This document shows, piece by piece, positions 17,088 through 56,220 of a stretch of DNA of 64,000 nt. The stretch covers positions 496,001-560,000 of the forward strand of contig CAUYUJ010000292.1 of the NCBI GenBank assembly GCA_963575745.1, in the 5' to 3' direction. The first letter of the stretch is position 1; each line of letters starts with the position of its first letter. Under the pieces are notes generated by a model. That model saw only the letters and a program-made list of their open reading frames with translations. It ran no database searches and was not told where the DNA came from. The position numbers were made by a program, and so were the translations under genes. This DNA is from Prorocentrum cordatum (lineage: Eukaryota).

Positions 17088-17163
17088 CACTCACTCACTC
17101 ACTCACTCACTCACTCACTCACTCACTCACTCACTCACTCACTCACTCACTCACTCACTCACC
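17087..17163. repeat. (TCAC)n / (GTGA)n microsatellite
   Basis: About 19 perfect units. Confidence 0.95.
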
Positions 17164-22966: not shown

Positions 22967-23740
<774 letters not shown>

Positions 23741-23749
23741 TACTTGCTG

Positions 23750-25220: not shown

Positions 25221-25344
25221 GACATGCACAATTGCGGTACCCACAGCTTCATATGGTTGGGTCCTTCGCCAGGACAAGGTTCCTGCTCGTTCTCTGTCTC
25301 TGCTGCTGCTCTGCGCGCTCGTTTCGGTCTGGTGGTGCGTCCCC

Positions 25345-26472: not shown

Positions 26473-26639
26473 TCTAGGAGGCCTTTCTTCAAGGGTTGCC
26501 CCGCTGATAGGGAGGTGGGGGGGGCGTCCTCTGCAGCCCCTCGCTGGGCGCGGGCTCGCTCGCCGCCCCCCTCCAGGGCTTGGACGCGGGGCAGTCCCAC
26601 TCGCCGGGCGCCTCCGGGAGGCGCAGGGTCGCCGCCTTC

Positions 26640-32725: not shown

Positions 32726-34425
32726 GCCACTAGCTTCTCGGGATCTAGGAGGACATCACTGAGAGCTCCTGGGAGGTGTCATGAGTAGGTTTGATCCCAG
32801 GATCCTAAGAACCGAATCGACCCTGCAATAAGAGATGCTGTCACTCGGATAACCCGTGACGCACTGCATGGTGGTCCCAGCATCCCTTCTCAAGCGAGCG
32901 GAGCGCGCCCCGAGCGTTGAAGCTATTTAGCTTGTCGTATCGCCTCTTCGCATCAGAGCGACGATCGCACGGCCGTAGCTGGCTGCATTCGGAGCCAGCT
33001 TCGCCTCTTACACTTCGCTCCGCAGCACCAGAGCCCGCTGCCAGTGCTCGCCCTTTTGGCACGCGCGGATCCCAACATTGTAGCTGACCAAGGCTGACCC
33101 GTGGCCTACCAACCACGAATGTGTTCGATACGGCGCGTGGGGCCAAGGCAGATATGCTGCTCAAAGACTTCTGTGATGACGTTGGGCCCGATCTTCGCAT
33201 CTGCTGTTGCTGCCTGCAGCTGCAGGGTGCTGCTGCCTGCGGCATGTTGCTGATGCTTACTGTTGCTGTGCGCTGCCGTTGCTTGCTGCGGACTGATGCT
33301 ATTGCTGTTGCTGAATGAGGTAACCTGCAGCTCGTGAGTGGACCAGGGAGCAAGGAGCGAGGAGTCAGGGCGAGGGGGGGAGGGAGCGAGAAGCGATCAG
33401 CGAGGAGCAAGGAGCGAGAACTGAGCAGCAACGGTCAAGGAGAGAGAGTGAGAGAGAGAGAGAGAGAGAGAAAGAAGCAAGGAGGAATGGGAGAGAGAGA
33501 GAGAGAGAGAGAGCCGAAGGAGGGGGGAGGCAGACGCCAATAGACAAGATGGAGAAGATCGGGGCCAGGAGAGAGGTGTGAGGAGCGAGGAGGAGTAAGA
33601 AGAGAGAATCCAGGAGCGAGGAGAGAGAGAGAGAGAGAGAGGCGGAGAGCGACGAGAGAGTCAGGAGCGTGGAGCAGGGGGCGAGAAGGGAGGCACGAGA
33701 AGAGGCCAGCGCACGACTGTCTCAGCAGCCTCGGCGCGCGTGTGGCCGAACATCGTGTCTCCTCTGGGGCCGCCCGTGGGGCTCTCCTGGGCTCTCGAGA
33801 AGGATCATTCCCTCGGAAGCCTCCTGGAGGCTGTTTTGGGGGTGTGTCTTGGGGCCTCTCAGGGGGCCTGTGCTGGCCCTCTTCGGGGCCTCCCGGGGCT
33901 CCTAGGGGGGCCTCTTGGGGGCATGCTGGCGGTCTCGGGTGTCATATTGGACGGAGGGTGCGAGATGCCAGCTCCAAGTCCCCCCTTGGAACCGTCATAG
34001 GCCGTCTTGGGGGCCTCTTGGGCCGTCTTGGGGCCCTCTTGGGCTGCCTGGGGGCCTTCTGGGGGGCCTGTTGCGCCGCGGGGCGATATTGGGGGCCTCT
34101 TGGGCTGTCTTGGAGCATCGGAAGCTCGAAAAGGTGAGAAAATAGCATTGTTTGAAAAACGTATGGGGGATCACTGATGATGACTTCTCCGCGTCCTCTT
34201 GGAGCTCTCTTGGGCCGTCTTGGGGCCCTGTTGGGCCGTCCTGCGGCACCTTTCGGGTCATCTGGAACCGTTTTGAAACAATCTTGGGCCATCCTGGGGC
34301 CATCTGGGGCTCTCTGGAGCCTTTCCGGACGCGTCCTGAAACCCTCCGATTGCGGCACGAGGCTCCCAAATCCAGTGGGCCCCAGGCCCTTTTCGCAGGC
34401 ACTGGTTCCGGCATTGCAGAAGAGA

Positions 34426-34530
34426 TGACGTCGAGCTCAAGCTTCGCCTCCCACATCTCGCTGAGCAACGCCAACGACCGCAGCCACTGCTCGTCCTTCT
34501 CGCACATGTTGATTCCAGACGTGTAGCTGA
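34426..34530 (-). pseudogene. PPR motif block (1 motif, 105 nt)
   Basis: SYTSGINMCEKDEQWLRSLALLSEMWEAKLELDV; exactly 35 codons between element ends. Confidence 0.85.
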
Positions 34531-34782
34531 CCCGGGCTGACCCGTGGACCCCGTCCACAAAATCTGCTCGAACTGGCACGGATTGTGGACATGCTGCCGA
34601 CAGGCTAAAATTACCGCGTGGGGCTCGACCCTCGCACTCAGCGCATGCTACTGCGTGCTGCTGGCTGCTGGTTGCTGGCGTTGTTGCCTGCTGGTGGTAG
34701 TGCTTGCCGCTGCTGCGTGTTGTTGTTGCTTGTGGCTGCAGGGTGCGTATGCTTGGTGCGCGCTGCTGACCGCTGTCTGCTG

Positions 34783-34831
<49 letters not shown>

Positions 34832-36061
34832 GCTGTTGCTGCGTGCTGCCGCTGCTGCCTGCCTGCTTTGTGCTTCGTGCTGCTGCCATTCGGGACATGG
34901 GAGCTTGGGGCCGCCCGACCATGATTTTGAGCCTCCTTGAGGCCGTAATACGGCCAAGGCTGGAAATTAAGAAGCAACAGTGGGCCTTAGTTTCCAACGA
35001 TGTTCCATGGTGGCTGTGGCCGCCCGAGGAGGTCGGAGGATGCGCGCGGGCTGCGTGGGCTCGGGAGAAGACTGAAAGCACTCCAGAGCACTCTCAGAGA
35101 GAACTCCCCGACGAGTCGCCCATTCAGACCGCAGCCTTAGCAAAGAAGAAGAGAAACTGAGAGGCGCATGGGTGCATGATTCTTCGGCGTGGCCGGCGCG
35201 GTCTCAGAGCTCTCTCAGGGGCCTTCCCCTGGAAGCCTCCTGGAGACGAACTTGGGGCTGCCTGAGGGCCTCTCGGGAGCCTCTGGGGACCTGATTTGAG
35301 TTGTGGATGCCACGACAATGGACACCCTAATAGTCCTATCATCGAACTTCTAACATTTGTTTAAACTGTCGGAGGAATGTCCTGAAAATGCTTGAAACAT
35401 GTTTGTTACACGTTTGAGATATGTTTGACACATGCTTTAGACATCTGGAAAGTAAGTATTTGGCAACGTGCTTCCTCTCCATTGATCGTCCTCCACAAGA
35501 GTTGAGCCTCTTGGGGCTCCTGGCAGGCCTCATCTTGGAGGCCTGCCGTCTGCCGTCGGCTTCTGGAGCGGAGGGCGCGACATGTCAGCTCGAGTTTCCC
35601 CATCGCGGGGCCTTTCTTGGGGCCGTCTTGGAGGCCTCTTGGGTGGTCTTGGGGCCCTCGCAGGTCGTCTGGGAGCTCCACTGGGGACCTCTCCTGCCGT
35701 CTTGGAGCCAACTTGGGGGCATCTGGGGCCGTCTTGGAGCATCGAGACTCCGAAGAGGTGAGAAAACTTAAGCCCGTCGAAAAGAACACAAGAGACGCAC
35801 ATGATTGTGACCCACGAGGTCCTTGAGGGGGGCTTATTGGAGCCCTCTTGGGCCGACTTGCGGCCCTGTGGGGTTGTCTATTATTGGCCGCCTCTTTCCG
35901 TCCCCGGCGCCTCGGACCATCTTGGACCGTCTTGGGGTCCTCTTGTGCCGCCTTGGCTGGCCCCTGCGCGCTCCAGGCTCCCCTCCGGGGGGGGCCGCTT
36001 GCCAGCCTGTTGAATAATTGTTCCTCCTGTCGCGCGGATCCCCCTTGCGTTGTAGGGTCGA
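34531..36061 (-). mobile_element. Helitron-like non-autonomous element between PPR motifs
   Basis: 5' TCGACCCTACAACGC at 36061. 3' hairpin gtggac-ccc-gtccac (34544-34558) then GGTCAGCCCGGG on the minus strand (variant terminus). Confidence 0.65.
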
Positions 36062-36169
36062 TGACGTCGTGCTCCAGCTTCGCCTCCCACATCTCGCTGA
36101 GCAGCACCACGCCCCGCTACCACTGCTCACCACCCGTCTCGCACGCGTTGATCCCAGCGTTGTAGCTGA
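36062..36169 (-). pseudogene. PPR motif block (1 motif, internal stop)
   Basis: SYNAGINACETGGEQW*RGVVLLSEMWEAKLEHDV; 108 nt. Confidence 0.85.
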
Positions 36170-36413
36170 CTGGCTCAGAGCTTCCCTGGGGCCATCAGGG
36201 TGGCCTCTGGAGCGGCTCGGAGCCGTCTTAGGTTCGTGGGGGCGCCCTCTTGATCGGTTCGGCGCCGTCTGTGGGCCGTCGGGGCGGCCTCTGGAGCGTC
36301 TCGGAGCCGTCGTGGGGCCGTCGGGGCGCCCTCTTTAGCGGCTCGGAGCCGCCTTCTACCACTCTTTCCAGAAACCCTTCTCGCACGCACAGTCCCTGGC
36401 ATTGTGGGAAAGA

Positions 36414-37329
36414 CTAGGGCTGACCCGTGGACTCCGTCCACGACACCTGGCCGAGCGTATTCTCAGGGGAGCGGCGGGAATGCGGCCGAAAAGCTATCCA
36501 CATGGCGGTCAGCCCCTCGGCTTCCAGTGGGCCTCTGAAGGCCCTCTTGGGCTCTCGTCGGTGCCGCTTGGGCCGTCTCGGAACCGTCTTGGGCCGTCTT
36601 GGGCGCCTCTTGGGCCGTCTGGGGGCCGTCATGGGCGGCTCTTAAGGCTGTCTTGGGTGCCTTCTGGGCCATCTTGGGGCCGTCGTGGGCCGTCTTGGGC
36701 GCCTATTGGGCCGTCTTCGGGCCGTATTGGGCCGTCTTTGGGGCTGTCTTGGGCGCCTCTTGGGCAGTCTTGGGCGCCTGTTGGGCCGTCCTGGGCCCGT
36801 CTTGGTGCCCTGGGGCATCTTGGGTCGATCTTGGGGGTCTCTGTGGCCGTCGTGGACGCGTCGGAAACGAGAAGCACGAGAATGCCAAAAATGAGAGCTT
36901 CCCGACGGGAATGGGACGACTTTTGCGTCTCGGGGCCGTCCTGGGGAATCCTCGAGGGCCGTCCTCGGAGGCTCCTGACCAGCAATGGGGGCCCTCGGGG
37001 CCGTCGCAGCGGCCTCTCGAGCGGCTGGGAGCGCCCCTGTGGCCGTCGGGGGCGCCCTCTTGAGCGGCTCGGAGCCATCTTGGGGTCGTCGGGGCGGCCT
37101 CTGGAGCGGCTCGGGGCCGACGTGGGGCCGCCGGGGCGCCCGCTTCGGCGGCTCGGAGCCGCCGGACCCCCCTCCCTCGCGCGGAGCGCGCCAGGGGCGG
37201 CGCCGGAGGCGACGCCGGGGGGCCCAGCGCGGATCCAAGAAGTCCGCGCGGAGCGCCACAAGCTTATGTTTATGCCGCGTTTTCGTCTTCGATTCTCGCA
37301 CGCACTGTTCCCGGTATAGTTGGAGGAGA
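36414..37329 (-). mobile_element. Helitron-like element, joined head-to-tail to a short copy (36170-36413)
   Basis: 3' CTAG at 36414-36417 with hairpin cgtggac-tcc-gtccacg (36426-36442). 5' TCTCCTCCAAC...GTGCGTGCGAGAA at 37329. Body rich in CGGCCCAAGA repeats. Confidence 0.7.
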
Positions 37330-37400
37330 AACAACGCCAGCCTCCAATTCCGCCTCCCGCACATCGCCGATCAGCACCAAAAAGCTCGCTGCCACTGCCC
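37330..37400 (-). pseudogene. Degenerate partial PPR motif
   Basis: GQWQRA/(frameshift)/LVLIGDVREAELEAGVV. Confidence 0.6.
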
Positions 37401-39241
37401 GCCTTGCTGCTGGTTCTGTTTGTGTGGCTGTTAACCTGCGGTCCGACGTATTGCTGGCATGCCTGCCTGCTTGTATGCCGGCCTGCTGGATTGATTTCTT
37501 AGGTGCTAGCTTCTTGCGATTCGCTTGCTCCCACTTGCTGCGGGTTGTTATTGCTCAGTGTTGATTGCTGCTGCTTGCTACTGTTAGCTGTTTCTCGTTT
37601 CTGCTGTTGCCAACTGTTGACTGGTGCTGGCACCTGCTTGCCGTAGTTTGGTGCTGCTGATTGCTGTTGCTTGGTGCTGGCTGTTGCTGCTTGATGCGTG
37701 CTTGCTTGGCGCAGGTGATATGAACGCGTGTTGGTGCTGCTGCGTTTCTACTGCTCGGCGAGGCTAACTTCTGCTAAGGCTTGCGTCTGCTAAGGCTTGC
37801 GTCTGCTCGGCGAGGCTGCTTATGATGCAGTCTGCTGCTGCCTGTTAGTGCTGACTTCTGCTAAGGCTTGCGTCTGCTAACTGCTCATGGCGCCGCTGCT
37901 GGCTCTGCTGGTGCTGGATCTGGGGGTTGTGTCGGGGCTCGCTGGGCCCGTCTCACGGCTCTCCGTGGGGCCTCCTGCGTCATCGTGGTGCCCTCTGGAG
38001 GCCCCCTCGGGCTCCGTGGAGGGCCTTCTGGGCGCATCCTGGGGCTCTCTTGGGGCCGCCTCGGGAGCTGTATGGAGCGCTCGGGTGCCGTCCTGGGACT
38101 GTCCGGGGGCTATGCCCTCTTGGAAACGCGTCGGGGCACTCCGAGGCCGTGTCGGGCACTGCCGGACTTGGGTGGAGGCGAGCCAGGAGGCATCTGGGCG
38201 TCGAGGACGGCGTCGCCCCCCGAGCGGAGCCGCCGAGGCAACGCAGCCCAGGGCTGGCCTAGGGAAACAAGCTGCCCTTCTCGCACGCCCGTGCCATACC
38301 AACACGGAGCCTGATGAGTGTACCATCCACGGGCCTTCCTCAAACTCATCTTGGAGTCCTCCAGGCCAGCCTTAGGTCGGGCATGTTCTCCTACAGGCGG
38401 GCTTTGGACGTGTCAACAAAAATACCCCCCAAATAATCAAACATGGTCAAAGCGTCGTCCCCAGATAATCTCTTAAACTATTTTGGAAGACTCCTCCTTT
38501 GGAGGGACGTGCCCTGCTTGCTGTTACCATCCTCGGGCCCTCCTCGAACGCATCCTGGAGTCCTCCGGGCCCGCCTCGCGGGGGCCGCTTTGGGAGCCTC
38601 CGGGAGCCTCCTCTCGGCCTCACCTGGGAGCCTCCCTGGGCCCGGGCCGGCCGGGTGGCCTCCATCGTGCCGCCCTGGGCTCTCGGGGCCGCGCCTGGGT
38701 GCCTCTTGGGTCGTCCGTGGCGCCTCCTGGGCTGCCTGGGGCCGCCTGGGTGCCGGCCGAGGGGGCACGTCGTAGCGTGTTGGGGCGATCTTGGGGGCCC
38801 GTGTGGTGGTGCTGGGCGCTTCGAGGACGAGGAGCACGAGAATAACGGCGCTGTGCGTCGAGCAAGAGACGAAACGCACGAGCACGAAGAGCGAGGAGAG
38901 CACGAGCGAGTGACGGAGAGCACGAGCACGAAGGAACTTGAGAACGATCTGCGTTTCTTGGGGCTGTCTGGGGACTCCGCTCGGAGCCCTCTTGAAACGT
39001 CTCGGGGGCCTCGGGGATGCCGTCTCGGACGTCTTCGGGCACTCTCGGACCGTCTCGGAGTCCACTCGGCCCATCTCGGAGGACTCTTTGGACCCCCCTT
39101 GGCCGTCACAGGCGCAGCGGCACGGGCGTGTGGGGAGCACCTGGGAGCTCTGCAGGCGCCTCTGGGGGCCTTCCAGACGCTGGATGAGCTATCTGGACAG
39201 CGCTCCTCCCGCACGAGCGGGGCCCAGCCATGTAGGAGAAA

Positions 39242-39499
39242 TGACGTTGGGCTCCAGCTTCGCCTCCCCAGTGATGCGCGATCTGCTGAGCAAGATCATC
39301 TCGCTGCTGAGCGAGATGATCTCGCTGAGCAGCGCCAGTGTCCGCTGCCACTGCTTGCCCTTCTCGCACGCGCTGATCCCAGCGTTATAGCTAATGACGT
39401 TGGGTTTCAGCTTCGCCTCCTGCATCTCGCTCAGCAGCGCCAGCGCCCGCTGCCACTGCTCGCTCTTTTCGCACGCGCTGATCCCAGCACTGTAGCTGA
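39242..39499 (-). pseudogene. PPR motif block (2 motifs plus an internal 48-nt expansion)
   Basis: SYSAGISACEKSEQWQRALALLSEMQEAKLKPNVISYNAGISACEKGKQWQRTLALLSEIISLSSEMILLS...EAKLEPNV. Confidence 0.88.
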
Positions 39500-40631
39500 C
39501 TAGGGCTGACCCACGGACGACGCCCACGAAATCTGCACGAACTGGCACGCTATTGTGCACATGCCGCCGGAAGGATGAGATGAATAACGTTGGGCTCGAC
39601 ACTAGCAGTCCGCACGTTTCCCTGCGTGTTGCTGCGTGCTGCCGCTGTTTCGGTCATGTTGGTGATGCTTGCCGCTGCTACATTTGTTGCTGCTTGTGGC
39701 TCCAGAGTATTGATGATGGCCAGTTGTGCTTGGTGCGTGCCGCTGCCCGCTGCCTGCTGGTGCTTGCGGTTGCTGTATGCTGCCGCCGCTGCTGCCTGCT
39801 TCGTGCTGCTGCCGTTCGCTGCTGCTGACTGGTGCTGCAGGATGCTGCCGCTCGCTGCCTGCTTCGTGCTGCCTGCCTACGGTTGGTGCCCGCCGGAACA
39901 AATACTTGTCTGCTCCGTCGGCGGCGAGGCAGAGGCAGCCCGCTCCAGCGTGTGGCCACTCGAGGCAACCCAAAGGCGACTCGTCCGCCGTGCATGAGGG
40001 GGAGAGAAAGCGAGGGCGGCCGCGCGGGGGGAGTCGCAAGGAGGAGAGCGCTCACACGTGGAAGACTTCCGCGTCGGGCGGGCCAGGGCAGCCAACCGAG
40101 GCAGCGGTAACCTTCTTAGGTCGGGCCTGTCCCCCTACAAGGGGATTTTGGATGAAAAAAGAATAGTCGAACAATACCCCCCGAATCATCAAGAATAGTC
40201 TAAACGTCCCCAGACTATTTTTTGCCATTTTGGAATATTCCTTCTGTGGAGGGACAGGCCCGACTTACCGGTAACCGTGGCCGGAAAATACACACGTCCG
40301 AGCGATGCCGAGGCTCTGTGATCGCACCCGCGGCACCAATCGGGGGCGGCCAAGATGGGGGTGTCCAAGAGGGGGGGGGGGGCGCAAATCATGGCCGGCG
40401 ACATGTGCGCGGCCCTAGAGGGGGGGAGGCCCGGGGACGTAACGAGATAAGAGGCGCCATGACATCTGGGGAACTATCACGGTCCACGCAATGATATCCA
40501 CAACACCTATAGTAACCACTCTCTTCTCGGGCGCCCCCCGGACCAAGAGAGCGCGCACGCCGCCGCGAGGAGCGCCCGAGGCCCCTCGGGCGACAAAACA
40601 GGGACGGCGAGAGGGGGGGGAGGGGGGGGAG

Positions 40632-40731
40632 NNNNNNNNNNNNNNNNNNNNNNNNNNNNNNNNNNNNNNNNNNNNNNNNNNNNNNNNNNNNNNNNNNNNN
40701 NNNNNNNNNNNNNNNNNNNNNNNNNNNNNNN
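40632..40731. other. Assembly gap (100 N)
   Basis: Run of n; true length unknown. Confidence 0.99.
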
Positions 40732-43301: not shown

Positions 43302-43625
43302 TGAGGCGGGGCTCCAGCTTCGATCTCCGCATCTCGTTGAGCAGCGCCAAACCCAACTATCACTGCTCGCACATCTCGGATACGTTAAACCCGGCGCTAT
43401 AACAAATGACGATGGGCTTCAGTTTCAGCTCCAACATCCCGCCGAGAAGGGCAAAGGACCACTATTAATACTCGCACTTCTCGCTCCTCTCGCACGCGCT
43501 GATCCCGGCACTGTAGCTGATCACGTCGGGAACTAGCTTGGTCTTCCACATCTCGCTGAGAAGCGCCCAAGCTCGCTGCCACTGCAAACCCTTCTCGCAC
43601 GCGCTGATGCCGACGTTGTAGCTGA
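43302..43625 (-). pseudogene. PPR motif block (~3 motifs, last two frameshifted/degenerate)
   Basis: SYNVGISACEKGLQWQRAWALLSEMWKTKLVPDVISYSAGISACERSEKCEY*, later LALLNEMRRSKLEPRL. Confidence 0.85.
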
Positions 43626-45350: not shown

Positions 45351-45770
45351 TGATGGTGGGCTCCAGCTCCACCTCCCCCATCTCGCTCAGCAACACTAGA
45401 GCCCGCTGCCACTGCTCGCCCTTCTCGCACGCGCTGATCCCAGCGCAGTAGCTGATCACGTCGGGCTCCAACTGCGCCTCCCTCATGTCGCTTAGAAGCG
45501 CCAAAGCCCGCAGCCACTGCACGCCCTTCTCGCACGCGCTGATCCCAGCGTTGTAGCTGTTCACGTTCGGTTTCAGCTTCGCCTCCCACATCTCGCTTAG
45601 CAGCGCCAGACCCCGCTGCCACTGCTCGCCCTTCTCGCACGCGCTGATCCCAGCGCAGTAGCTGATCACGTCGGGCTCCAGCTGCGCCTCCCGCATCTCG
45701 CTGAGAAGCGCCACAGCCCGCTGCCACTGCTCGCCCTTCTCGCACGCGCTGACCCCTGCGCTGTAGCTGA
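45351..45770 (-). CDS. Four intact tandem PPR motifs (exon or gene fragment of a PPR protein)
   Basis: 420 nt = 4 x 105, open frame; four copies of SYxAGxSACEKGxQWxRxxxLLSxMxExxLxPxx, matching the 35-aa P-type PPR pattern. Confidence 0.85.
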
Positions 45771-47879: not shown

Positions 47880-48115
47880 GCACCCGCGACCCACCCCACG
47901 ACCAACCCCGCGACCCACCCCACGACCCACCCCGCGACCCACCCGTGACCCAACCCGCGACCCACCCGCGACCAACCCCGCGACCACCCCGCGACCCACC
48001 CGCGACCAACCCCGCGACCCACCCCGCGACCCACCCGCGACCCACCCCGCGACCCATCCGCGACCCATCCGCGACCCACCCCCGACCCACCCCGCGACCC
48101 ACCCCGCGGCCCACC
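47880..48115. repeat. ~12-nt minisatellite (CCCGCGACCCAC)
   Basis: About 19 units, with a remnant at ~48280-48345. Confidence 0.9.
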
Positions 48116-50894
48116 CTCAAGGGAGGAAAAACCACCCAGACCCGACGATTGACGTTTGGAACGGCCCTGGGCATTGACTAAACAGCCCTGCCGTGTTCGA
48201 ATCATTCCGTGTGTGCGTTTACTGAACGGCTTCGCTTGCCGGGGCGATGATTATGGGGTGGGTTTTCTGCCCTCTACACCCGCGAGCTACCCGCGACCAA
48301 ACAGCGACCCACCCGCGACCCATTTGCGACCCACCCGCGACCTACCCACATGGGTTTAACGAAAAATCCGGCGCCTGTGGCGGGCTCTTTGTATAATTTG
48401 TAAAACTTTGGCGCCTGCGGCGGGCTTCTCCAGAGTCTCGCAAACTCCCGACGTCCCCACCGCCCCCCTCTTGTATCCGCATCTGCGGGGCGCTACGTTT
48501 TTCCTCCTCCTCCTGCTCCTCCTCCTCCTCCTCCGCTCCGGCGCACGCAGCCGCGCGTCGCCTTGGCATTCCAGCGCCGCCTCGTCCTCCTCCTCGTCCT
48601 CCCGCGCCGCAGCGTGTGCCTTTCTCTCATCCGCCGCCGCAAGGAGGCCCCGCCCCTCCGTCCTGCCTCATCCTCCGTCTCCTGCGGCGCGGTCCGTCGT
48701 CGGTCCGCCGTGAGTCCGCGTCTCGTGCCTGCGCCTCGGCTGCGTCCGTCGTCCGCGTCCTCGGCCTCGGCCTCGGTGCAGCCTCCTCAGCTCCTCCTAC
48801 CGTCCGCCGCCGCCTCCGCCGTCGCCTCGTAGGTCCCAATCCAGTGCACCCATCCGCCTCCGCAGCTGCTAGCCGCTCAGGCGGAGGTGGAGGAGGCTGG
48901 TGTGGGGGGCGGCGGCGGCTCTGTGTTGGTAGTTGTTGCCCGATGACCTATGAGGAGGGTGTGTGCAGTGGTGGGGCGGCCGCTGCTACGCCGGGCGGGG
49001 ACGCGACGCGGAGGGGCCCCGCCGCGGCTTAGGCTCCGCCATTCCTCCCTGTAGGTTTGCCGCGGGGGCAGGCGGCACGCCGCGCAGCTCCGCCGCCGCC
49101 GCAGGAATCTACCGCCCTCCTGCCTCCGCAGCAGCATGTCTGCGTGCAGCATCGTCATCCTCGATTTTTTCCTCCTCGCAGCCCTTTGGTGTATGGACGT
49201 GCTTCCCCTCCCCTCCTCTCTCGCTTCCTCCTCCTCCTTTCCTCCTCGTCCTCGTCCTGTCTCGTGCTCGTGCTCGTCCTCCTCCTATCCTTCTCTCCTC
49301 ATTCCTCCCTCTTTTTTCCTCCCCCATCCCCTTCCCCGGCCTCATCTCCTCTCCTCCTTCTCCTCCTCTTCTTCTTCTTCTTCCTCCTCCTCCTCCTCCT
49401 CCTTGTCCTCCTCCTCTTCTCCTTTTCTCCTTCTCCTCCTTCTTCTCCCTCTGTTTTTCTTCCTCCGCTTCTTCTTCTTATTATTATTCTTCTTCCTCCT
49501 CCTCCTCCTCCTTCTCCTCCTCCCCCTTTGGACCCTGTGCGCCTCGGCCTGCCCGCCCCCCGGGGCCCAGGGGTCTGCCCCGCGCCAGGGCTGGAGGCAC
49601 GCTGGCTTCTGCCCGGGCGTGAGCGCGGGTGTGGGCGTTGGCCTGGGCCTGGGCGCGTGCCCGGGAGTGGGCGTGGACGTGGCTGGAATGGAGGGAGGGC
49701 GGGCCCCTGAGCGGGGCGGCGCCTCTCCCCTCCGGAGCGCCGGCGGGAGGGGCGGGAGGCGCGGTCTGTGAGCACTCGGGTGATAACCTGTGGGCCATCT
49801 TGGGTTGGCCTTCGGCGGTCTTGAGGCCGTCCTGGGCCCGTCCTGGAGGGCGGCATGGCCAATCTTCAGAGCGTCTTGGGCCCTACTGGAAGCTCTTGCG
49901 GGCGGCCTCAGGGGCCCTACTGGAGCGTGCGCAAGAGCTTCCTCGCATGCAAGTCTGCAAAACGATTGCCTGCAGCACTGCTTGCGTGCTGTCCCCGTTG
50001 TGTGGCTGCTAGCCTTCTGTATTTGCACTGTCTTGCACGCAGTCCTGCTTGTGCGCTGCCCCTGGCACATATTTCCGTTTGATTGCTGGGTTGCGAATTT
50101 CACCGCTGGCACGTTCGCTCGCTGCCGCTTGCTGCGACTCGGTGGTGCTGCCTGCTCTTTGCTGGTGCTACTTTTTATTGTGGTTCGGCGCTGTTGCTTG
50201 GTGATGTCTAGAGCCAGCCCTTACTGCTTGCCTGCTGCTGATTGAAACTGCTTGCTGCTGGTCGTGGTCCTTACTTGCTGCAACTGATTGCTGATGCTTG
50301 CTGCTGCTCGCCAGTGCTGTTTACTGCTGTCAGCTGTTACTTGGTAGTTACGTGTGCTGATGCTGCCTCCTGCTGTTGATTGTTGCTGATGGCTGCTGCC
50401 GCCATTGCTGCACCTGGATCTGTGAGACGCGCTGGGGCTCTCTTGCGCCGTAGTGGGGGCGTGCACACCCCTATGGGAGCCCTTCAAGGGTCTCGCAGGC
50501 CGTCTTGGCGCCCTCTGGAGGCCCAGTCGGGCCGTCCGGGTGCTCTCCAGGAGCGCTCTGTGGCCGTCCTGGGGCCCTCTTGGGGCTGGCTGAGGACCGT
50601 AATGGAGGCGCGTCGGGGGTATCAGACACTGCTGGGGTAAGGTGGACGCGAAAAGGTCAAGAAACCAACACACGTTGGGAAATGTAACGTATTTTGCAGA
50701 TTTGTTGGGTCTGCAGACCTCTTGGCGCCTCTGGGGGTCCCTCGGGTGCAGGCCCACAGCCTCGGAAATCCGTTGGGGGCCTGGTCCCAACGACCCCGAG
50801 CTTCTCGGAACGCCCAGATCGGCGACGCGGCCTGACACCAACGTGCCTCCAATATGTCACCCTCGCGCGCGCTGGCCCAGAACAACCGCATGGG

Positions 50895-50999
50895 TAACGT
50901 CGGGCTGCAGATTCGCTCCCCGCATCTCGCTGAGAAGCACCAGAGCCCGCTGCCACTGCTCGCCCTTCTCGCACGCGCTGACCGCAGCGTTGTAGCTGA
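50895..50999 (-). pseudogene. PPR motif block (1 motif, 105 nt)
   Basis: SYNAAVSACEKGEQWQRALVLLSEMRGANLQPDV. Confidence 0.85.
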
Positions 51000-51812
51000 C
51001 TAGGGCAGACCTGTGGACTCCGTCCACGACATCAGCTCGACGTGGCGAGGGGTCTCTGGGCAAGCGCGGCGTGCCTGTCGCCTCTCGTCCGCTCCCCCGC
51101 TCCTGGAGGGAATTCTGAAGCCACTGAAGGCTTCGTGGGGGCCGTTTCGGAGCCTCTTCGGCCTTCTTTTGGGCCTCCCGGGGGGGCTCTTAGGGCCCTC
51201 TCGGGCCGCCTTGGGTGCCTCTTGGGCCTTCTTGGGGCCGTCTGAGGCCCGCTTCGGCGCCTCTTGGGCTGTCTTGGGCCGTCTTGGGCCGCTCCTGGGG
51301 CCGTCTTGGGTGCCTCTTGGGCCGTCTTGGGCGCCTCCTGGGCCGTCCTGGGGCCGTCCTGCGGCGTCTTGGGACCGTCTGGGGGCCCTCCTGGCCCGTC
51401 TTGGGGCTCTCTTGGGTCCTCTTCGGCCGTCTTGGAGCGGTCGGGGGGACTTCTTGGGCCGTCTTGGAGCGTCGGGAAGCCGAAGAGGCGAGGAGGCCGA
51501 AAACATCGAAAAACACAATAGAAATCGATGATTTCTGTCGCTCGGGGCCCTCTTGGGAGGCCTCTTGGGAGGCCTCTTCGGGCGTCTTGGACGCCTCTTG
51601 GGCCGTCTGGGGCGAATCTCGGGCGTCGTGGGCCCATCTTTAAGCGTGCCGGGGCTCTCCGGGGCCGTCTTGGGGGCTTCTGGGGGCCCTCTCGACATGT
51701 CCTGGAGCCTGCCTGGGCGGCCCGGGGCGGCCCGGGGCCAGCCCGGGGCGGTTTGGGTGCATTGGGGCCTGCGCCCTTCTGGCACGCACTGGGCCCTGCA
51801 ATGTAGTAGAGA
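51000..51812 (-). mobile_element. Complete 813-nt Helitron-like non-autonomous element
   Basis: 5' TCTCTACTACATTGCAGGG at 51812. 3' hairpin gtggac-tcc-gtccac (51013-51027) then CTAG (51000-51003) followed by the target T. Near-duplicate of ~54065-54809. Confidence 0.8.
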
Positions 51813-54809
51813 CTAGGGCTGACCCGTGGACTCCGTCCACGACATCTTTATGGAATGGTTCTCGGAGGAACGGCGCAGATTGTACCGAAAATCTACAAAC
51901 ACGGCGGCGGCTCGGGCGGCGGCAGCGAGACCGCGCCTTCGTGTCCGAGCTCTTGCAGCGCTCCAGCAGCTTGGCCCAGCGCACTGCTCGTTCACCCCCC
52001 TCCTATTGAGGGCAGTTTCGAAGTCTCTCGGGGATGTGCGTCGAAGTCGAGGCCCATCTGAGGCGTCTCAGGAGCGCCCAGGGAAGGGCTCGGGAGGCCA
52101 TCGGGGAAAGCCACCGAAAGCGCCGGGGAGGCTCGCAAGGATCTACAGGGAGGGCCCAAGAGAGCTTCAAGAAAATATGAAATCCAGTGAACTCTTAAGA
52201 GAAACCGCTGTTGGGTCGGCCATCACCTCCGGGCGCGCCTTGATGGTGCGATCCAGTCGCATCACCGCCAACGGGAGGGTTTGTTCGCCATGTCCCATTC
52301 TGTTCGCCCAGAGGGTCTGTGGAGGCCTTCGGGCGAACAGAACGGGACAGGGCAAGGAATGGGGAAGCCATGTCCGAATCTCCTGGGCCCCCCAGATGCT
52401 CGTCCGAAGAATGCGGAGAGGTCCCAGGGTCATATCAATTGGCTGCTGTCCCAGGGGTCCGGTCTGCTTGGCCCGAAGAGTTTGCCAAGGCCCCTGGGGG
52501 AACAGAATGGCACAGCGTATCGGGCAAAGGGGGGCGGTAGCTGGCCTGTCAGACCCGGCGTTCGTCTTCTGCCCAAGCGGCGCAGGGCCCACGGGCCCCA
52601 GGGTTGGCGTCCCGCTGGGATTCCTCTTGTTCGCCCACAGGGTTGGAGGAGGCCTCCAGGCGAACAGAATGGGGCAGGACAATGAAGGTGGGAGACTCGT
52701 CGCAAGCTCCCAGCCCCCCCAAGTGTGCGCCCGAAGGGTGTGGGGCCGCGTTGGCTCCCTCAAAGGGCCGTCTTGGAGCCGTCTAGGCCCGTCTTGAGGG
52801 CGCCGTTTGCCCTGATGGGGCCGTCTTGGTTCGTCGTGGGCCCCTCATGGGCGCGTCCGTAGGCCGTCCTGGGCCATCGGGGTCCTCGTGGGGCTGTCTT
52901 GGAGCCGTCTGGGACCGTGAGGAGGCCGCCTTGGAGTCGTCTTGGGCCCCTCCTGTGCGCCTCCTTGGGCCGTCCTGGGCCAGCAGGGGCCGTGTTGGCA
53001 CCCTGTTGGGGCTGTCTCGGAGCCGTCCTGAGCCGTCGCAGCGCGCCTTGGGTTGTGTTGGGTCCGTCTTGGCCCGTCTTGGGGCCTTCCTGGGCGGTTC
53101 CTCGGACCCTCCTGGGACTTTCTGGGGCCTCTTGGTGCATCGGACCGCCGAAACGGCGGGAAACGCAAAGGGTGTAACAGTAAACAATGGACAATTAACG
53201 ATTTTTGCCAGCTGGGACTCTCTTGCCATCTTGCCCCGAACGGGCGCGTCCTTGGGCCGTCCTGGGCGCACCCTCCTGGGACCGTCTTGGAATCGTCTTG
53301 GGCCGTCTTGAGCGCGCCTTGGGCCGTCCTGGGCCGGTCTGGGGCCGTGTTGGCACCCTCGCGGCGAGGAAGCTCGGAGGCGGGCTCGAGGCCTCTTCGG
53401 AGCCATTTTGGAAGCTGTTGGGGCCTCTGTAGGGGCCTCGTTTGGGCTCCTTGGGAGCCTCCTGGGGCCTCTTCGGGGGATTCTTGGCGGCCCCTTGGGG
53501 CCTCTTGGGGGCCTGTTTGGGCCTCCTGGCGCCCTCTTGGGGCGGAAGGCTCGGATTTTCTGTGGGGCCCCCTCTTGGGCTGTCTTCGGGCGTCGTCTCT
53601 TGGAAACCTCTTGGGCCGTTCTGGGGCGCTCTTGGAGGCCTCTTGGGCCGTCTTCGAGCGTCGGAAAGCGGAAAAGGCGAGAAGGCCAAAATCCTTCCAA
53701 AACCGTCGTAAAGCGGACGATTTTGAGGCCCAAAACCGTCCAAAACCTCCTGAGGCGGTCCCCTCGTCCGCCCCCCTCGCTTCGAAGCAGTTTTTAAGCC
53801 CCGTGGCACCTCTTGGGGATCTCTTTTGGGCTCCTGGGGGCCTCTTGGGCCTCCACTGGATTCGCTGCCCTCGGTCGGCAATCGTCGATCCTACGACGAC
53901 TCTCCCCAACGGAGAAACATCGAAGGCCCTCGGAGCGTTGTTCTTTTGTGCCTTCGATATGCCAGTCGCCTCTCGTCCGCTCCCCCCCTCCTGGAAGCAA
54001 TTCTGAAGCCACTCAGGGCTTCGTGGGGGCCGTTTGGGGATCTCTTGGGGCGTTTTTGCCTGCGATATGCCTGTCGCCTCTCGTCCGCTTCCCCGCTCCT
54101 GGAGGGAATGCTGAAGGCACTGAAGGCTTCGTGGGGGCCGTTTCGGAGCCTCTTCGGCCTTCGTTTGGGCCTCCCGGGGGGGCTCTTAGGGCCCTCTCGG
54201 GCCGTCTTGGGTGCCTCTTGGGCCGTCTTGGGGCCGTCTGAGACCCGCCTCGGCGCCTCTTGGGCTGTCGTGGGCCGTCTTGGGCCGCTCCTGGGGTCGT
54301 CTTGGGTGCCTCTTGGGCCGTCTTGGGCGCCTCCTGGGCCGTCCTGGGGCCGTCCTGGGGCGTCTTGGGACCGTCTGGGGGCCCTCCTGGCCCGTCTTGG
54401 GGCTCTCTTGGGGTCCTCTTCGGCCGTCTTGGAGCGGTCGGGGGGGCTTCTTGGGCCGTCTTGGAGCGTCGGGAAGCCGACGAGGCGAGGAGGCCGAAAA
54501 CATCGAAAAACACAATAGAAATCGACGATTTCTGTCGCTCGGGGCCCTCTTGGGAGGCCTCTTGGGAGGCCTCTTCGGGCGTCTTGGACGCCTCTTGGGC
54601 CGCCTGGGGCGAATCTCGGGCATCTTGGGCCCATCTTTAAGCGTGCCGGGGCTCTCCGGGGCCGTCTTGGGGGCTTCTGGGGGCCCTCTCGACATGTCCT
54701 GGGGCCTGCCTGAGCGGCCCGGGGCGGCCCGGGGCCAGCCCGGGGCGGTTTTGAGACATTTGAGCCTGCACCCTTCCCGCACGCACGTGCCCCTGCAATG
54801 TAGTAGAGA
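51813..54809 (-). mobile_element. Composite ~3-kb Helitron-like element
   Basis: 3' CTAG at 51813-51816 with hairpin 51825-51841. 5' TCTCTACTACATTGCAGGG at 54809. First ~750 nt nearly identical to the 813-nt element. Confidence 0.72.
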
Positions 54810-56115
54810 CTAGGGCTGACCCGCGGCCTTCCGGCCGCGGAGTCTGCCCGCCATGGTGTGGACGTGGAAAGGGAGTGTCTCCGGGGCCTCGCGGGGGGGG
54901 AGGTTGAAGGGGACGGTGTGGATGGGGGAAGTGGCCGCTGAAGGGGGAGGTGGGCGAGGGATGCAGGCAAGCAGGCCTGAAGGCAGGAACGCATGTAGGC
55001 ACAACGTGGTGTGGACAGAAGCTGTTTCTCACGCCGCGCTTTGTGTTCATCATAGCCTTTGCGGGGCGGGGCGCCGTTATCATTTTATCTGCTCTTAGCT
55101 GGGGCCGCGTGATATACGACCCAAGAGGCCCACAAGAGGGCGCCGAGACGGCCCGCACAGGGGCCGCTCAGGCGCCCGGTGCACGGGAGAATCACCGATT
55201 GGACGCTGGAGAAACTGTCAATTAACTGTCGATTTGGTTTACTTGGGCTGCGCGATAGGAGCCTTCTCGGGTTGTCTGGACACTCTTGGGGCCTTCTTCG
55301 GGGCATGCTCAGGGCATCCCTGTGGCTCCTCCCTCCTCGTCCTCCCCTGGATCGGTCATCCAGTCGATCTTCTTTAGGAGCCATCTCGGTGTGTCTGGAC
55401 CGTCTTGGGGCCTCCTTCGGATCATGCTCGGGACATCTCAGTGGCTCCTCCTCCTCCTCCCCTCGATCCTTCATCCCGTCGATCTTCTCGTCAGTCGTCG
55501 ACGCTCCCCAAGAGACAAGCATTCAATGCCTCATGGGTCCGTTTGGAAGCCTCTTTTCGTCCTCCTGGGGGTCTCTCGGGCCCTTTTGGGCCGTCTTGGG
55601 TACATCTTGGGCCGCCTTGGAGCGATTTGGGGCCGTCTTGGGCGCCTCTGGGGCTATCTTGTGGCCGTCTTGGTTGCCTCTGCGGCCGTCTAGGGCGTCT
55701 CTGGAGCCGTGGCGGGGCCGCCTCGGGCCGTTTGGGGGCCCTCCTGGAGTGCTCTGGGGGCGTCTTGTGGCGATCGGGACGGCCTGTGTAGCCGTCTTGG
55801 ACGCGCTGAAGACGAAAAGAGCAAACATATAAAAAATGCACGTTTTCCGTAGGGAATGGGGCAAATGTTTGCCTCTTGGGTCCCTCCTGGGGGTCCTCCT
55901 GGGCCGCCTTGGGAGCCTCCTGGCCTGCCTTGGGGGCCGAAGGGGCCGACCTGGGGCTCGGTTGGGTCCCTCTTGGTCTGTCCGGGCGCCCTTGTGGGCG
56001 TCTCTGAGCCGTCTCGGAGCGGCCCGGGGGCTCGCAGGGCGGCCTGGAGAGCCCAGCGGACCTTTCAAGACAGAGGACCTTCTTGCACGCAAAGATCGCT
56101 ACATTGTAGAAGAGA
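54810..56115 (-). mobile_element. Helitron-like element with an alternative hairpin
   Basis: 3' CTAG at 54810-54813, spacer GGTCAGCC, hairpin ccgcggcc-ttcc-ggccgcgg (54821-54840). 5' TCTCTTCTACAATG at 56115. Confidence 0.75.
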
Positions 56116-56220
56116 TGACGTCGGGCTCCAGCTTCCCCTCCCACATCTCGCTGAGCAGCGCCAGCGCCAGCTGCCACTGCTCGACTTTTTCGCACGCGCT
56201 GATCCCAGCATTGTAGCTGA
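56116..56220 (-). pseudogene. PPR motif block (1 motif, 105 nt)
   Basis: SYNAGISACEKVEQWQLALALLSEMWEGKLEPDV. Confidence 0.85.

What the first reader, a model, noticed from the sequence alone, without database searches (positions are those of the whole stretch)
34388..56115. The elements' 5' ends mimic their own PPR target with a constant +2 nt offset
Seen (minus strand): the target after the cut reads TCAG-CTAC AAC GCT GGG ATC AGC GCG TGC GAG AAG GG. Element starts read TCTCTT-CTGC AAT GCC GGA ACC AGT GCC TGC GAA AAG GG (34425), TCTTTC-CCAC AAT GCC AGG GAC TGT GCG TGC GAG AAG GG (36413), TTTCTC-CTAC ATG GCT GGG CCC CGC TCG TGC GGG AGG (39241), TGTACC-CTAT GTG GCC CGA AGC GGT GCG TGC CTG AAG GG (45350), TCTCTA-CTAC ATT GCA GGG CCC AGT GCG TGC CAG AAG GG (51812; similar at 54809) and TCTCTT-CTAC AAT GTA GCG ATC TTT GCG TGC AAG AAG G (56115). 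CTAC and GCGTGC...AAGGG are kept while the middle drifts, and similarity stops after ~39 nt. Inference: the transposase may recognise the same bipartite site as origin and as target, which would explain the PPR specificity. Alternatively the 5' end was recruited from a PPR motif.
Basis: partly seen in the sequence, partly recalled or inferred. Interest (0 to 1): 0.85.

Follow-up and report, generated by a model that had tools for sequence, protein, structure and literature searches.

The report
Helitron-like elements homing to PPR repeats
About eleven gene-less jumping elements with the end marks of rolling-circle (Helitron) transposons sit at exactly the same spot between the repeat units of a dinoflagellate PPR gene, and each begins with a worn copy of the sequence it lands next to, which may be how the family finds its target.

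Summary
Plus 2 nt is the best register for 8 of the 11 elements I delimit. The likeness is block-wise (TC, CTAC, GCGTGC, AAGG), shows no clear codon pattern, and stops sharply at unit position 38.

The elements carry every structural hallmark of classic Helitrons. These are a 5' TC, a subterminal hairpin followed by 8-9 nt and CTAG, host A|T flanks, no inverted repeats, and precise head-to-tail CTAG|TC joints. The cut is therefore at GTCA|TCAGCTAC, not after TCAG. The +2 is TC-TCTY-CTAC in the element against TC-AG-CTAC in the target.

One metagenome contig and dozens of predicted dinoflagellate proteins (closest named species: Prorocentrum cordatum) show the same ends beside PPR units.

No Rep-helicase gene lies in the window, and no genome or reads could be used. 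Recognition of one site as both origin and target stays an inference, and a locally amplified composite repeat is not excluded. Earlier scan notes report an abundant rolling-circle-like repeat elsewhere in this genome. Sequence look-ups did not link it to this family.

The parts
54810..56115 (-). Element E1 (1306 nt). Starts TCTCTTCTAC after host A. Ends in the hairpin CGCGGCC-GGAA-GGCCGCG, then GGTCAGCC and CTAG.
51813..54809 (-). Element E2 (2997 nt), head-to-tail behind E1 (CTAG|TCTCTACTAC). Its first ~740 nt are 95% identical to E3. It probably holds an older internal joint near 53880-53930.
51000..51812 (-). Element E3 (813 nt), the shortest complete copy. It runs from the PPR-like arm through the body with its AT-rich core to the hairpin and CTAG.
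45771..50894 (-). Element E4 (5124 nt), atypical. Its start is CCCATG and PPR likeness there is not convincing. It ends CGGT with a decayed hairpin and holds long low-complexity tracts.
43626..45350 (-). Element E5 (1725 nt). Starts TGTACC-CTAT. Ends in the hairpin GTGGAC-GTA-GTCCAC and CTGG.
39500..43301 (-). Element E6 (3802 nt, includes the N gap 40632-40731). Starts TCTCTT-TTAC, and PPR likeness runs to about unit position 55. Ends CTAG with the hairpin decayed.
37409..39241 (-). Element E7. Starts TTTCTC-CTAC after host A. No canonical 3' end; it runs into a 5'-truncated PPR unit.
36414..37329 (-). Element E8 (916 nt). Its pyrimidine spacer is longer (TCTCCTCCAA) and the arm has a 3-nt deletion. 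Its 3' end is canonical: GTGGAC-GGAG-GTCCAC, GGGTCAGCC, CTAG.
36170..36413 (-). Element E9 (244 nt), head-to-tail behind E8. Starts TCTTTC-CCAC. It lacks the canonical hairpin end, and its body resembles part of E8 (82%).
34531..36061 (-). Starts TCGACC-CTAC after host A. Ends with a hairpin and CGGG.
33088..34425 (-). Element E11 (1338 nt). Starts TCTCTT-CTGC. The stem GTGGTT/GGCCAC pairs only with G-T wobbles. Ends TTGG.
56116..56218 (-). One SACEK-type PPR unit upstream of E1
50895..50997 (-). One PPR unit between E3 and E4
45351..45768 (-). Four PPR units with three empty borders (..GTGATCAGCTAC..). Pfam PPR_2 E=3.8e-17.
43302..43623 (-). Three PPR units (the third decayed) with two empty borders
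39242..39497 (-). About 2.5 PPR units with an internal rearrangement. Pfam PPR_2 E=3.6e-8.
36062..36167 (-). One PPR unit (with an in-frame stop) between E9 and E10
34426..34528 (-). One PPR unit between E10 and E11
32985..33085 (-). Last SACEK unit. The gene then continues with divergent PPR-like units that carry no insertion.
51772..51812 (-). Example of the PPR-like left arm: TCTCTA, then CTAC, 17 nt that drift between copies, GCGTGC, 3 nt and AAGGG. It scores 28 of 36 at +2.
51813..51842 (-). Example of the right end: hairpin, spacer, CTAG. It is identical over 32 nt to the E8 end and over 29 nt to the end in metagenome contig L001.

Best explanation
The 'elements' are non-autonomous rolling-circle transposons of the classic Helitron type (HLE1-like).

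Shown:
- Eleven copies, 0.24-5.1 kb, fill 8 of 14 unit borders of one probably dead SACEK-type PPR gene. All lie in the same orientation.
- They are inserted between the A and T of ..GTC A|TC AGC TAC.., the border of the 105-nt repeat units.
- Each starts with TC-TCTY-CTAC, which is the usual Helitron 5' consensus.
- The next ~30 nt are a diverged copy of PPR unit positions 7-38 and travel with the element.
- Each canonical copy ends with a 6-8 bp hairpin, 8-9 nt and CTAG.
- The '+2 offset' is the difference between TC-TCTY-CTAC in the element and TC-AG-CTAC in the target.

Inferred:
- The Rep-helicase that moves the family must nick both its own left end and the target. It reads about 45 nt downstream of the nick, through two blocks: TC..CTAC and GCGTGC..AAGG.
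- Every PPR unit border offers the same two blocks, 21 instead of 23 nt from the nick. It is therefore bound and cut as a pseudo left end, which gives orientation-specific homing to PPR arrays and insertion directly next to resident copies.
- The look-alike arm most likely arose when a PPR border was once used as a new left end, and it has been kept since because it is the recognition site.
For: Ends (unless stated; for E7):
- 5' TC in 8 of 11 elements.
- 3' CTAG in 5 of 10 and CTGG in 1 of 10.
- 3' flank T in 10 of 10.
- 5' flank A in 7 of 8 elements that follow a PPR unit.
- Three precise CTAG|TC head-to-tail joints.
- No terminal inverted repeats in the 4 elements searched.

Hairpin:
- The stem is present in 6 of 10 window ends folded and in L001.
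- There are two stem sequences with paired changes, GTGGAC/GTCCAC and GCGGCC/GGCCGC.
- A possible third type lies inside E2.
- The peptides they encode differ completely (VDGVH against RPEGR).

Published hallmarks, from passages read:
- TC and CTAG ends, a 16-20 bp palindrome 10-15 bp from the 3' end, host A and T, and the maize 5' consensus TC[TC][CA]TA[CT]TA[CA].. . TCTCTACTAC fits that consensus.
- G/T head-to-tail joints (PMC2267711).
- Helraiser circles that join TC directly to CTAG (PMC5876387).
- HLE1 defined as TC, stem-loop plus CTRR, and an A-T site (PMC11417382).

Specificity:
- The unit consensus has 3 AT sites. One of them, at position 16, shares A|TCAGC with the border. All insertions are at the border site.

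Termini are better kept than bodies:
- 32 nt are identical between the E2 and E8 ends, and 29 nt with L001. The bodies are about 70-75% alike.
- E2 and E3 are 95% alike from the first base of the left end onward, but follow right ends with different hairpins.

Arm properties: as given in the observation check.

Other loci:
- L001 shows body, hairpin, CTAG|TC and at least 4 PPR units.
- The right-end peptide (..VH or ..GR, then G[SF]ALV) precedes a PPR unit in 14 distinct representatives.
- By my reading, a PPR end is followed by 7 residues, then [AV]RAxR, then non-PPR sequence in P0002, P0005, P0048, P0062, P0116 and P0140. In P0129 and P0139 the spacing is 8 residues.
- P0018 shows a head-to-tail joint.
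- P0002 and P0007 are 93% identical over 151 residues and part exactly at a unit border.
Against: - No Rep, helicase or any transposase domain was found among the 113 ORFs of 150 aa or more that passed a low-complexity filter, out of 204 such ORFs in the window. No genome was available to look for an autonomous copy.
- The one dinoflagellate RepHel I saw cited falls with Helentron/Helitron2, not HLE1 (PMC8788227, one passage).
- Every copy seen lies beside PPR units or another copy. Mobility therefore rests on indirect signs.
- All 11 window copies lie in one 23-kb cluster, so local duplication must have contributed. For example, the E6 and E10 3' parts plus the adjacent PPR unit are 71% alike over 530 nt.
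- A single PPR unit between two elements is the commonest state (5 of 9 window arrays, and most outside cases). This fits a composite repeat as well.
- Hairpin energies are modest (about -7 kcal/mol; z between -0.6 and -2.5, except for E1).
- Because TC stands at both joints, a 2-nt TC duplication cannot be told from no duplication.
- The PPR frame runs in phase into a conserved peptide-like core of the body in E2, E3, E10 and E11. A pure non-coding transposon model does not predict this.
- Outside the window, shifted PPR borders with variable offsets exist without an element body.
Confidence: 0.45

Rival explanations
1. The elements are the same Helitron-like family, but the PPR-like arm is only a relic. 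It would be a PPR unit start captured when a border happened to serve as a new left end, or a host fragment captured next to the true 10-nt end. The clustering in PPR arrays would then come from something else: recognition of the upstream flank (..GAGCCCGACGTCA), local re-insertion, or tandem amplification after a few hits.
For: - Helitrons are known for capturing host fragments (PMC2267711 and PMC11417382 passages).
- The conserved 5' flank ..GACGTCA is present at 7 of 8 PPR-flanked starts.
- Borders with +2, +5, +8 or -1 nt followed by whole PPR units exist elsewhere and could be the raw material.
- The E6 arm keeps likeness up to unit position ~55.
Against: - A neutral relic should decay evenly. 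Instead GCGTGC shows 2 changes in 42 cells and AAG 1 in 21, while the 17 nt between CTAC and GCGTGC and the GAG codon drift.
- The same [AV]RAxR block stands at fixed spacing in outside copies.
- Head-to-tail joints lack the upstream PPR flank yet were still used.
Confidence: 0.2
2. There is no site-specific transposition. The region would be a tandemly amplified composite repeat or pseudogene family. Its unit is spacer body, a 90-nt lead-in, PPR units, and a frame-shifted truncated last PPR unit. It would have spread by unequal crossing-over and segmental duplication. The 5' 'mimic' would then be an old decayed PPR piece inherited by descent.
For: - All copies are co-oriented in one cluster.
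- The number of PPR units per block varies from 0 to 4.
- The E6 and E10 blocks share the element 3' part plus a PPR unit.
- PPR genes of dinoflagellates are reported in tandemly duplicated blocks (PMC12787238, section 11 passages).
- The body core is in phase with the PPR frame in 4 of 4 testable elements, of which 3 are independent.
- PPR-end-like pieces lie about 90 nt upstream of the right end in E11 and, by eye, in E6 and E10.
Against: - The full set of Helitron hallmarks at the borders is hard to get by chance.
- Termini are better conserved than bodies and than the PPR units themselves: 29-32 nt identical, against 80-87% between PPR units.
- Stem changes are paired while the encoded peptide is not kept.
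- Element lengths range from 244 to 5124 nt.
- Joints with zero PPR units would need exact deletions between two TC dinucleotides.
- PPR likeness stops abruptly at position 38.
- The P0002/P0007 pair parts at a unit border.
- Copies occur on at least two long Prorocentrum cordatum contigs and on many short contigs.
Confidence: 0.22
3. The elements integrate as circles through a site-specific recombinase (Crypton-like tyrosine recombinase or similar). The joined ends (..CCCTAG-TC-TCTY-CTAC..) would act as an attP-like site resembling the attB-like PPR border (..GACGTCA-TC-AG-CTAC..), with TC as the crossover core.
For: - TC stands at both joints.
- The element 5' arm resembles the target's right side.
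- A faint likeness of the right end to the unit end (AGCCC..TC) can be seen by eye.
- The head-to-tail joints equal the predicted circle junction.
Against: - nhmmer finds no PPR likeness in the last 85-90 nt of any right end, so the mimicry is one-sided.
- There is no recombinase domain in the window.
- The asymmetric ends with a single 3' hairpin and TC/CTAG fit HUH elements better.
Confidence: 0.06
4. The elements are spliceosomal introns (introner-like) of a working PPR gene, removed from the RNA so that the PPR units join in frame.
For: - Exact removal would restore the repeat frame by construction.
- Dinoflagellates carry many introner families, and Helitron-derived introners are reported in other lineages (PMC12130899 passages).
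Against: - The three possible boundary readings are TC..AG, CT..GT and TC..TC. None starts with G, whereas dinoflagellate donors are GT, GC or GA (this rule is recalled, not tested).
- Several PPR units are themselves broken: a stop in the unit at 36167, and truncated units at 39392 and 37408.
- No RNA evidence could be obtained.
Confidence: 0.04

Closest known systems
Classic Helitrons (HLE1): maize HelA/HelB-type non-autonomous elements and bat Helibat/Helraiser
   Same: They share the 5' TC with a TCTCTACTAC-type start, a subterminal hairpin, 3' CTAG/CTRR and host A and T flanks. They also share the absence of inverted repeats, variable gene-less bodies, and head-to-tail CTAG|TC joints. Sources: PMC2267711, PMC5876387 and PMC11417382 passages, compared.
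   Different: - Known Helitrons need only an AT dinucleotide. Here one AT in a roughly 45-nt coding context is used, in one orientation.
- The left end carries a ~36-nt look-alike of the sequence downstream of the target nick.
- No RepHel was found.
- The host is a dinoflagellate.
IS200/IS605 (IS608) and IS91 HUH insertion sequences
   Same: These are single-strand HUH transposons in which the sequence cut at the element end and the sequence chosen as target are tied together, giving orientation-specific, site-specific insertion without duplications. Site specificity of IS608 and the IS91 tetranucleotide target appear in passages of PMC5876387 and of bioRxiv 10.1101/2022.12.15.520654. The guide-pairing detail is recalled.
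   Different: - They are prokaryotic.
- Their targets are 4 nt, not about 40.
- Recognition is by base pairing with a hairpin foot.
- The IS608 target lies upstream of the left end, whereas here the likeness is to the downstream side.
Target-specific elements in multicopy genes: R2 and other non-LTR retrotransposons, and Dada DNA transposons in small RNA genes
   Same: They show strict homing to one position of a repeated host sequence. For Dada I saw only the search listing and the start of the abstract (PMC3706591). The R2 details are recalled.
   Different: - Their enzymes and end structures differ.
- Their targets are RNA genes, not a protein-coding repeat.
- None of them is a Helitron.
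Helentron / Helitron2 (HLE2) and their HINE/DINE-1 derivatives
   Same: They are rolling-circle elements with a 3' stem-loop and internal tandem repeats. A dinoflagellate RepHel of this clade is on record (PMC8788227 passage). Earlier scan notes call an abundant repeat of this genome Helentron-like.
   Different: HLE2 have short terminal inverted repeats and insert between T and T (PMC11417382 passages). Neither is seen here.

Membership tests
Helitron, HLE1 type (non-autonomous) | 5' end starts with TC | tested here: met
   8 of 11 elements start TC. The other three start TG (E5), TT (E7) and CC (E4). E2 and E3 fit the maize 5' consensus at 12 of 13 places by my own count (consensus from PMC2267711).
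Helitron, HLE1 type (non-autonomous) | 3' end is CTRR | tested here: met
   CTAG in 5 of 10 window ends and in L001, and CTGG in 1. The other four read CGGT, CCAG, CGGG and TTGG, which look like decayed forms.
Helitron, HLE1 type (non-autonomous) | Short palindrome or hairpin about 10-15 nt before the 3' end | tested here: met
   A 5-8 bp stem with a 3-4 nt loop ends 12-13 nt before the terminus in 6 of 10 window ends folded and in L001. Two stem types differ by paired changes. The energies are modest.
Helitron, HLE1 type (non-autonomous) | Inserted between host A and T | tested here: met
   The 5' flank is A in 7 of 8 elements that follow a PPR unit, and G at the 3 head-to-tail joints. The 3' flank is T in 10 of 10.
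Helitron, HLE1 type (non-autonomous) | No target-site duplication | tested here: inconclusive
   There is no duplication if the element is read as TC..CTAG. Because TC follows both joints, a 2-nt TC duplication cannot be excluded.
Helitron, HLE1 type (non-autonomous) | No terminal inverted repeats | tested here: met
   No terminal pair appeared among the inverted repeats of E3, E5, E8 and E11, the 4 of 11 elements searched.
Helitron, HLE1 type (non-autonomous) | A RepHel (HUH nuclease plus Pif1-like helicase) copy with the same ends in the genome | not testable with these tools
   No such domain was found among the 113 of 204 ORFs of 150 aa or more that were scanned after a low-complexity filter. 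No genome is held. A search for longer proteins with the body found none.
Helitron, HLE1 type (non-autonomous) | Evidence of movement: filled against empty sites with the same flanks | tested here: inconclusive
   Six empty borders lie in the same arrays. P0002 and P0007 are 93% identical over 151 aa and diverge exactly at a unit border, but only at protein level.
Helentron / Helitron2 (HLE2) | Short terminal inverted repeats and insertion between T and T | tested here: not met
   No terminal inverted repeats were found. The flanks are A and T, or G and T.
Spliceosomal intron / introner | GT, GC or GA at the 5' boundary and AG at the 3' boundary | tested here: not met
   The possible boundary readings are TC..AG, CT..GT and TC..TC. 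The splice rule for dinoflagellates is recalled.
P-class PPR repeats of the SACEK type (the host units) | 35-residue PPR motif with Ser-Ala-Cys-Glu-Lys in helix a | tested here: met
   Pfam PPR_2, PPR_3 and PPR hits above cut-off for window 45319-45972 and 39192-39653. The units read SYNAGISACEKGEQW... The SACEK class is described in PMC12787238 section 11.

The most novel reading that the evidence does not exclude
The family's Rep-helicase treats every SACEK-PPR unit border as a weak copy of its own left end. This would give a eukaryotic HUH transposon a long (about 40 nt) sequence-defined target. It would also mean that rolling-circle initiation at PPR borders carries PPR units along to the next right end. 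The family would then have helped to multiply and scatter SACEK-PPR repeats, and their frame-shifted borders, through dinoflagellate genomes.
Probability: 0.12. Interest if true: 0.85.

Novelty: new variant of a known kind. Interest (0 to 1): 0.62.

Why it matters
Helitrons are regarded as needing only an AT dinucleotide, and how their enzyme picks targets is poorly known. A family that lands at one position of a coding repeat, in one orientation, and whose left end looks like its target would link end recognition to target choice in a eukaryotic HUH transposon. The link could be tested with simple oligonucleotide cleavage assays. It would also matter for reading dinoflagellate gene catalogues. 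Many 'PPR proteins' predicted from these genomes run through such elements or through frame-shifted unit borders, so counts of SACEK-PPR genes may be inflated by transposon-ridden arrays. My four literature searches listed no paper whose title or listed abstract start describes a PPR-targeting Helitron or a target-like Helitron left end. The library does not cover subscription journals.

Tried and rejected
- Whole genome: none is held.
There is therefore no read, RNA or polymorphism evidence of any kind.
- Metagenome scan: one hit only, L001.
- Viral contigs: no hit.
- Search for longer proteins carrying the body plus other domains: none.
- Rfam on 32.5-57 kb at E up to 1: two chance-level miRNA matches far below gathering score. 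No known ribozyme or RNA family lies at the ends.
- Earlier-findings look-ups by place, words and sequence: nothing on this family.
- Test of whether each arm was copied from its own neighbouring PPR unit, as a long target duplication or local conversion would give: no neighbour is a clearly better match (23-29 of 37 to all units). Rejected.
- Codon-level constraint on the arm: differences fall 18/19/28 by codon position, with 17 synonymous against 30 non-synonymous codon changes. This is similar to the full units (12 against 23). No clear signal.
- Terminal inverted repeats: none.
- Intron reading: the boundaries do not fit.
- ORF arguments are weak here. All three frames of this GC-rich, low-complexity DNA stay open for hundreds of codons.


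Full report
**Setting.** The window is GC-rich (about 60%). Earlier scan notes on other pieces of the same genome describe a dinoflagellate. The closest named proteins to the region are from Prorocentrum cordatum.

On the minus strand between 33 and 56.3 kb lie short arrays of a 105-nt repeat that reads SYNAGISACEKGEQWQRALALLSEMxEAxLEPDVI. Pfam calls these PPR. They belong to the SACEK class described for dinoflagellates (PMC12787238, passages of section 11). nhmmer with a unit model finds arrays of 1, 1, 4, 3, about 2.5, a 5'-truncated unit, 1, 1 and 1 units. After the last unit the gene runs on into divergent PPR-like units.

**The observation.** I scanned 17 offsets against the consensus of unit positions 3-38.
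- Plus 2 is the best register for all seven listed starts and for 43301, with 19-28 identities of 36.
- Normal borders give offset 0, with 32-35 of 36.
- Only 0.5% of 5000 random places reach 22 of 36 at any offset.
- At the +2 register, identity over eight elements is 100/160 for positions 3-22, 96/128 for 23-38, then 40/160 for 39-58.
- Gapped alignment beyond that point scores within the range of 200 shuffles for all 8, though for E5 only 13 of 200 shuffles reach its score.

So the likeness is real, about 36 nt long, and ends abruptly after AAGG(G). There are exceptions. E8 has a longer pyrimidine spacer. E6 keeps likeness to about position 55. E4 (50894) is not convincing.

**Is the arm part of the element, and how does it evolve?**
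- The arms share states that no full unit has. These are the pyrimidine hexamer and a T at the third place of the Ser codon (6 of 8 arms, 0 of 13 units).
- No arm is markedly closer to its neighbouring unit than to any other. The arms are therefore copied with the element and not made from the local target.
- Differences from the unit consensus fall 18, 19 and 28 on codon positions 1, 2 and 3, with 17 synonymous against 30 non-synonymous codon changes. This is much like the full units, so there is no clear codon-level constraint.
- Conservation is by block. GCGTGC has 2 changes in 42 cells and AAG has 1 in 21. The codons for Asn, Ile, Ser and Glu drift.

**The ends.** Upstream of every array, and at three places directly upstream of the next element, stands a conserved ~30-nt sequence. 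It consists of a stem-loop (GTGGAC-GGAG-GTCCAC), GGGTCAGCC, CTAG, then TC.
- Folding gives the stem in 6 of 10 window ends and in L001.
- E1 carries GCGGCC/GGCCGC instead, a change on both sides of the stem, and encodes a wholly different peptide.
- A possible third stem lies inside E2.

Read as TC....CTAG, the elements have these features (for E7):
- 5' TC in 8 of 11.
- CTAG in 5 of 10 and CTGG in 1 of 10.
- Host T after the end in 10 of 10.
- Host A before the start in 7 of 8 that follow a PPR unit.
- Three exact CTAG|TC head-to-tail joints.
- No terminal inverted repeats in the four elements searched.

These are the published hallmarks of classic Helitrons. The passages I read list TC and CTAG ends, a 16-20 bp palindrome 10-15 bp from the 3' end, host A and T, and G/T head-to-tail joints. 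The maize 5' consensus TC[TC][CA]TA[CT]TA[CA].. is matched by TCTCTACTAC (PMC2267711). Helraiser circles join TC directly to CTAG, and tandem Helitron arrays are known (PMC5876387 passages). HLE1 is defined by TC, a stem-loop plus CTRR, and an A-T site. HLE2 is defined by inverted repeats and a T-T site (PMC11417382 passages).

**Consequence for the finding.**
- The insertion point is the A|T of GTCA|TCAGCTAC, not TCAG|CTAC.
- Element and target both begin with TC.
- The +2 is TC-TCTY-CTAC against TC-AG-CTAC.
- CTAC belongs to the general Helitron left end as well as to the Ser-Tyr codons.
- The unit consensus has three AT sites, and the one at position 16 even shares A|TCAGC. Only the border site is used.
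- Eight borders are filled, by eleven elements, and six are empty.

**Signs of discrete, copied units.**
- Lengths run from 244 to 5124 nt.
- Bodies share only 70-75% identity, in short internal repeats and an AT-rich core. By contrast, 32 nt of the right end are identical between E2 and E8, and 29 nt with a metagenome contig.
- E2 and E3 are 95% identical from the first base of the left end for about 740 nt. They follow right ends with different hairpins.

**Copies elsewhere.**
- L001 (1259 nt) shows the same body repeats, a CAG/CAA-rich tract, the hairpin, CTAG|TC and at least four uninterrupted PPR units.
- A search of 1.84 billion representatives with the ORF spanning E10 end, one PPR unit and E11 start gave 545 proteins at E up to 0.001.
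- Among the 167 proteins held, the right-end peptide (..VH or ..GR, then G[SF]ALV) precedes a PPR unit in 14 distinct representatives. Once (P0018) it precedes a left end.
- By my reading, a PPR end is followed by 7 residues, then [AV]RAxR and non-PPR sequence in P0002, P0005, P0048, P0062, P0116 and P0140. The spacing is 8 residues in P0129 and P0139. This corresponds to 23 nt from the border to GCGTGC, which is +2 again.
- P0002 and P0007 are 93% identical over 151 residues and part exactly at a unit border. One continues with a PPR unit and the other with an element.

**Results that cut the other way.**
- No Rep, helicase or other transposase domain is in the window. One search scanned 113 ORFs. 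These were the ones that passed a low-complexity filter among the 204 ORFs of 150 aa or more.
- The only dinoflagellate RepHel I saw cited groups with HLE2 (PMC8788227, one passage).
- All copies seen touch PPR units or another copy. One PPR unit between two elements is the commonest state.
- The E6 and E10 3' parts plus the next PPR unit are alike over 530 nt.
- The PPR frame runs in phase into a conserved peptide-like core of the body in E2, E3, E10 and E11.
- PPR-end-like pieces lie about 90 nt before the right end in E11 and, by eye, in E6 and E10.
- Predicted proteins from other loci show borders shifted by +2, +5, +8 or -1 nt that are followed by a whole PPR unit, and frequent in-frame +3 borders. 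These may be footprints of lost elements, proto-left-ends, or plain decay.
- A composite repeat amplified by unequal crossing-over therefore remains a serious rival, and some local duplication surely happened.

**Mechanism.** I favour non-autonomous Helitron-like elements that home to the PPR unit border. The family's HUH enzyme must nick both its left end and the target. The two share TC..CTAC and GCGTGC..AAGG downstream of the nick, so the simplest reading is that the border is used as a pseudo left end. This also explains insertion right beside resident copies. That step is inference. The arm probably began as a PPR border that was taken as a new left end.

**What could not be done.**
- No genome was held.
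- There was no second metagenome scan, and viral contigs gave no hit.
- Rfam gave no family.
- Supplements of the cited papers were not opened.

**Literature searches.** My four searches listed no paper, by title or listed abstract start, on a PPR-targeting Helitron or a target-like Helitron left end.

Noticed in passing
window 33900-34200, 35700-35800, 51430-51560, 53620-53720, 54430-54560 (minus strand): Each element body holds an AT-rich core. In one frame it reads as a hydrophobic stretch followed by RRSKTAQEAPK.APRRPKR and PRGPQDG repeats. Dozens of predicted proteins from unnamed contigs share it at 45-57% identity (P0004, P0006, P0008-P0017, P0019). It is in phase with the upstream PPR frame in E2, E3, E10 and E11. 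Whether it codes for anything is unknown.
   Followed up: partly
proteins (other loci): PPR unit borders are an indel hot spot. An in-frame extra Phe (..DVI-F-SYS..) recurs in at least 9 proteins. Borders shifted by +1 or +2 mod 3 let gene callers read whole PPR units in the wrong frame (..TTLGSARARRASSGSG.. or ..LQRWDQRVREGRAV..). Some borders carry 9-nt pieces that look like the first bases of the left end or the last bases of the right end.
   Followed up: partly
window 53880-53930 (minus strand), inside E2: There is a third stem variant (TCTCC-GTTGG-GGAGA) followed by ..CGTAG and a TCGAC.. start like that of E10. E2 may be two or three elements joined head to tail, and it has three body cores.
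   Followed up: partly
window 33176-33201, and by eye about 90 nt upstream of the right ends of E6 and E10: A fragment resembling the last 26 nt of a PPR unit (..GCCCAACGTCATC) sits just upstream of the ~90-nt conserved right terminal region. The right end may therefore also have PPR ancestry.
   Followed up: partly
window 16340-17170, 22970-24830, 25340-26480: Long tandem-repeat arrays are present, with units mutually 82-95% alike. The 16.3-17.2 kb array matches the 25.3-26.5 kb array at about 83%. GC reaches 73% and GC skew is strongly negative around 22-26 kb.
   Followed up: no
window 40632-40731: An assembly gap of 100 N lies inside element E6. Long low-complexity tracts (poly-Glu/Gly/Pro-like, CT- and GGA-rich) run from 46 to 50 kb inside E4.
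   Followed up: no
window 45800-45990, 34600-34900, 37450-37700, 39550-39880; L001 360-620: A CAG/CAA-rich tract (poly-Gln when translated) lies just upstream of the right terminal region in several elements and in the metagenome copy. E3, E8 and E2 lack it.
   Followed up: no
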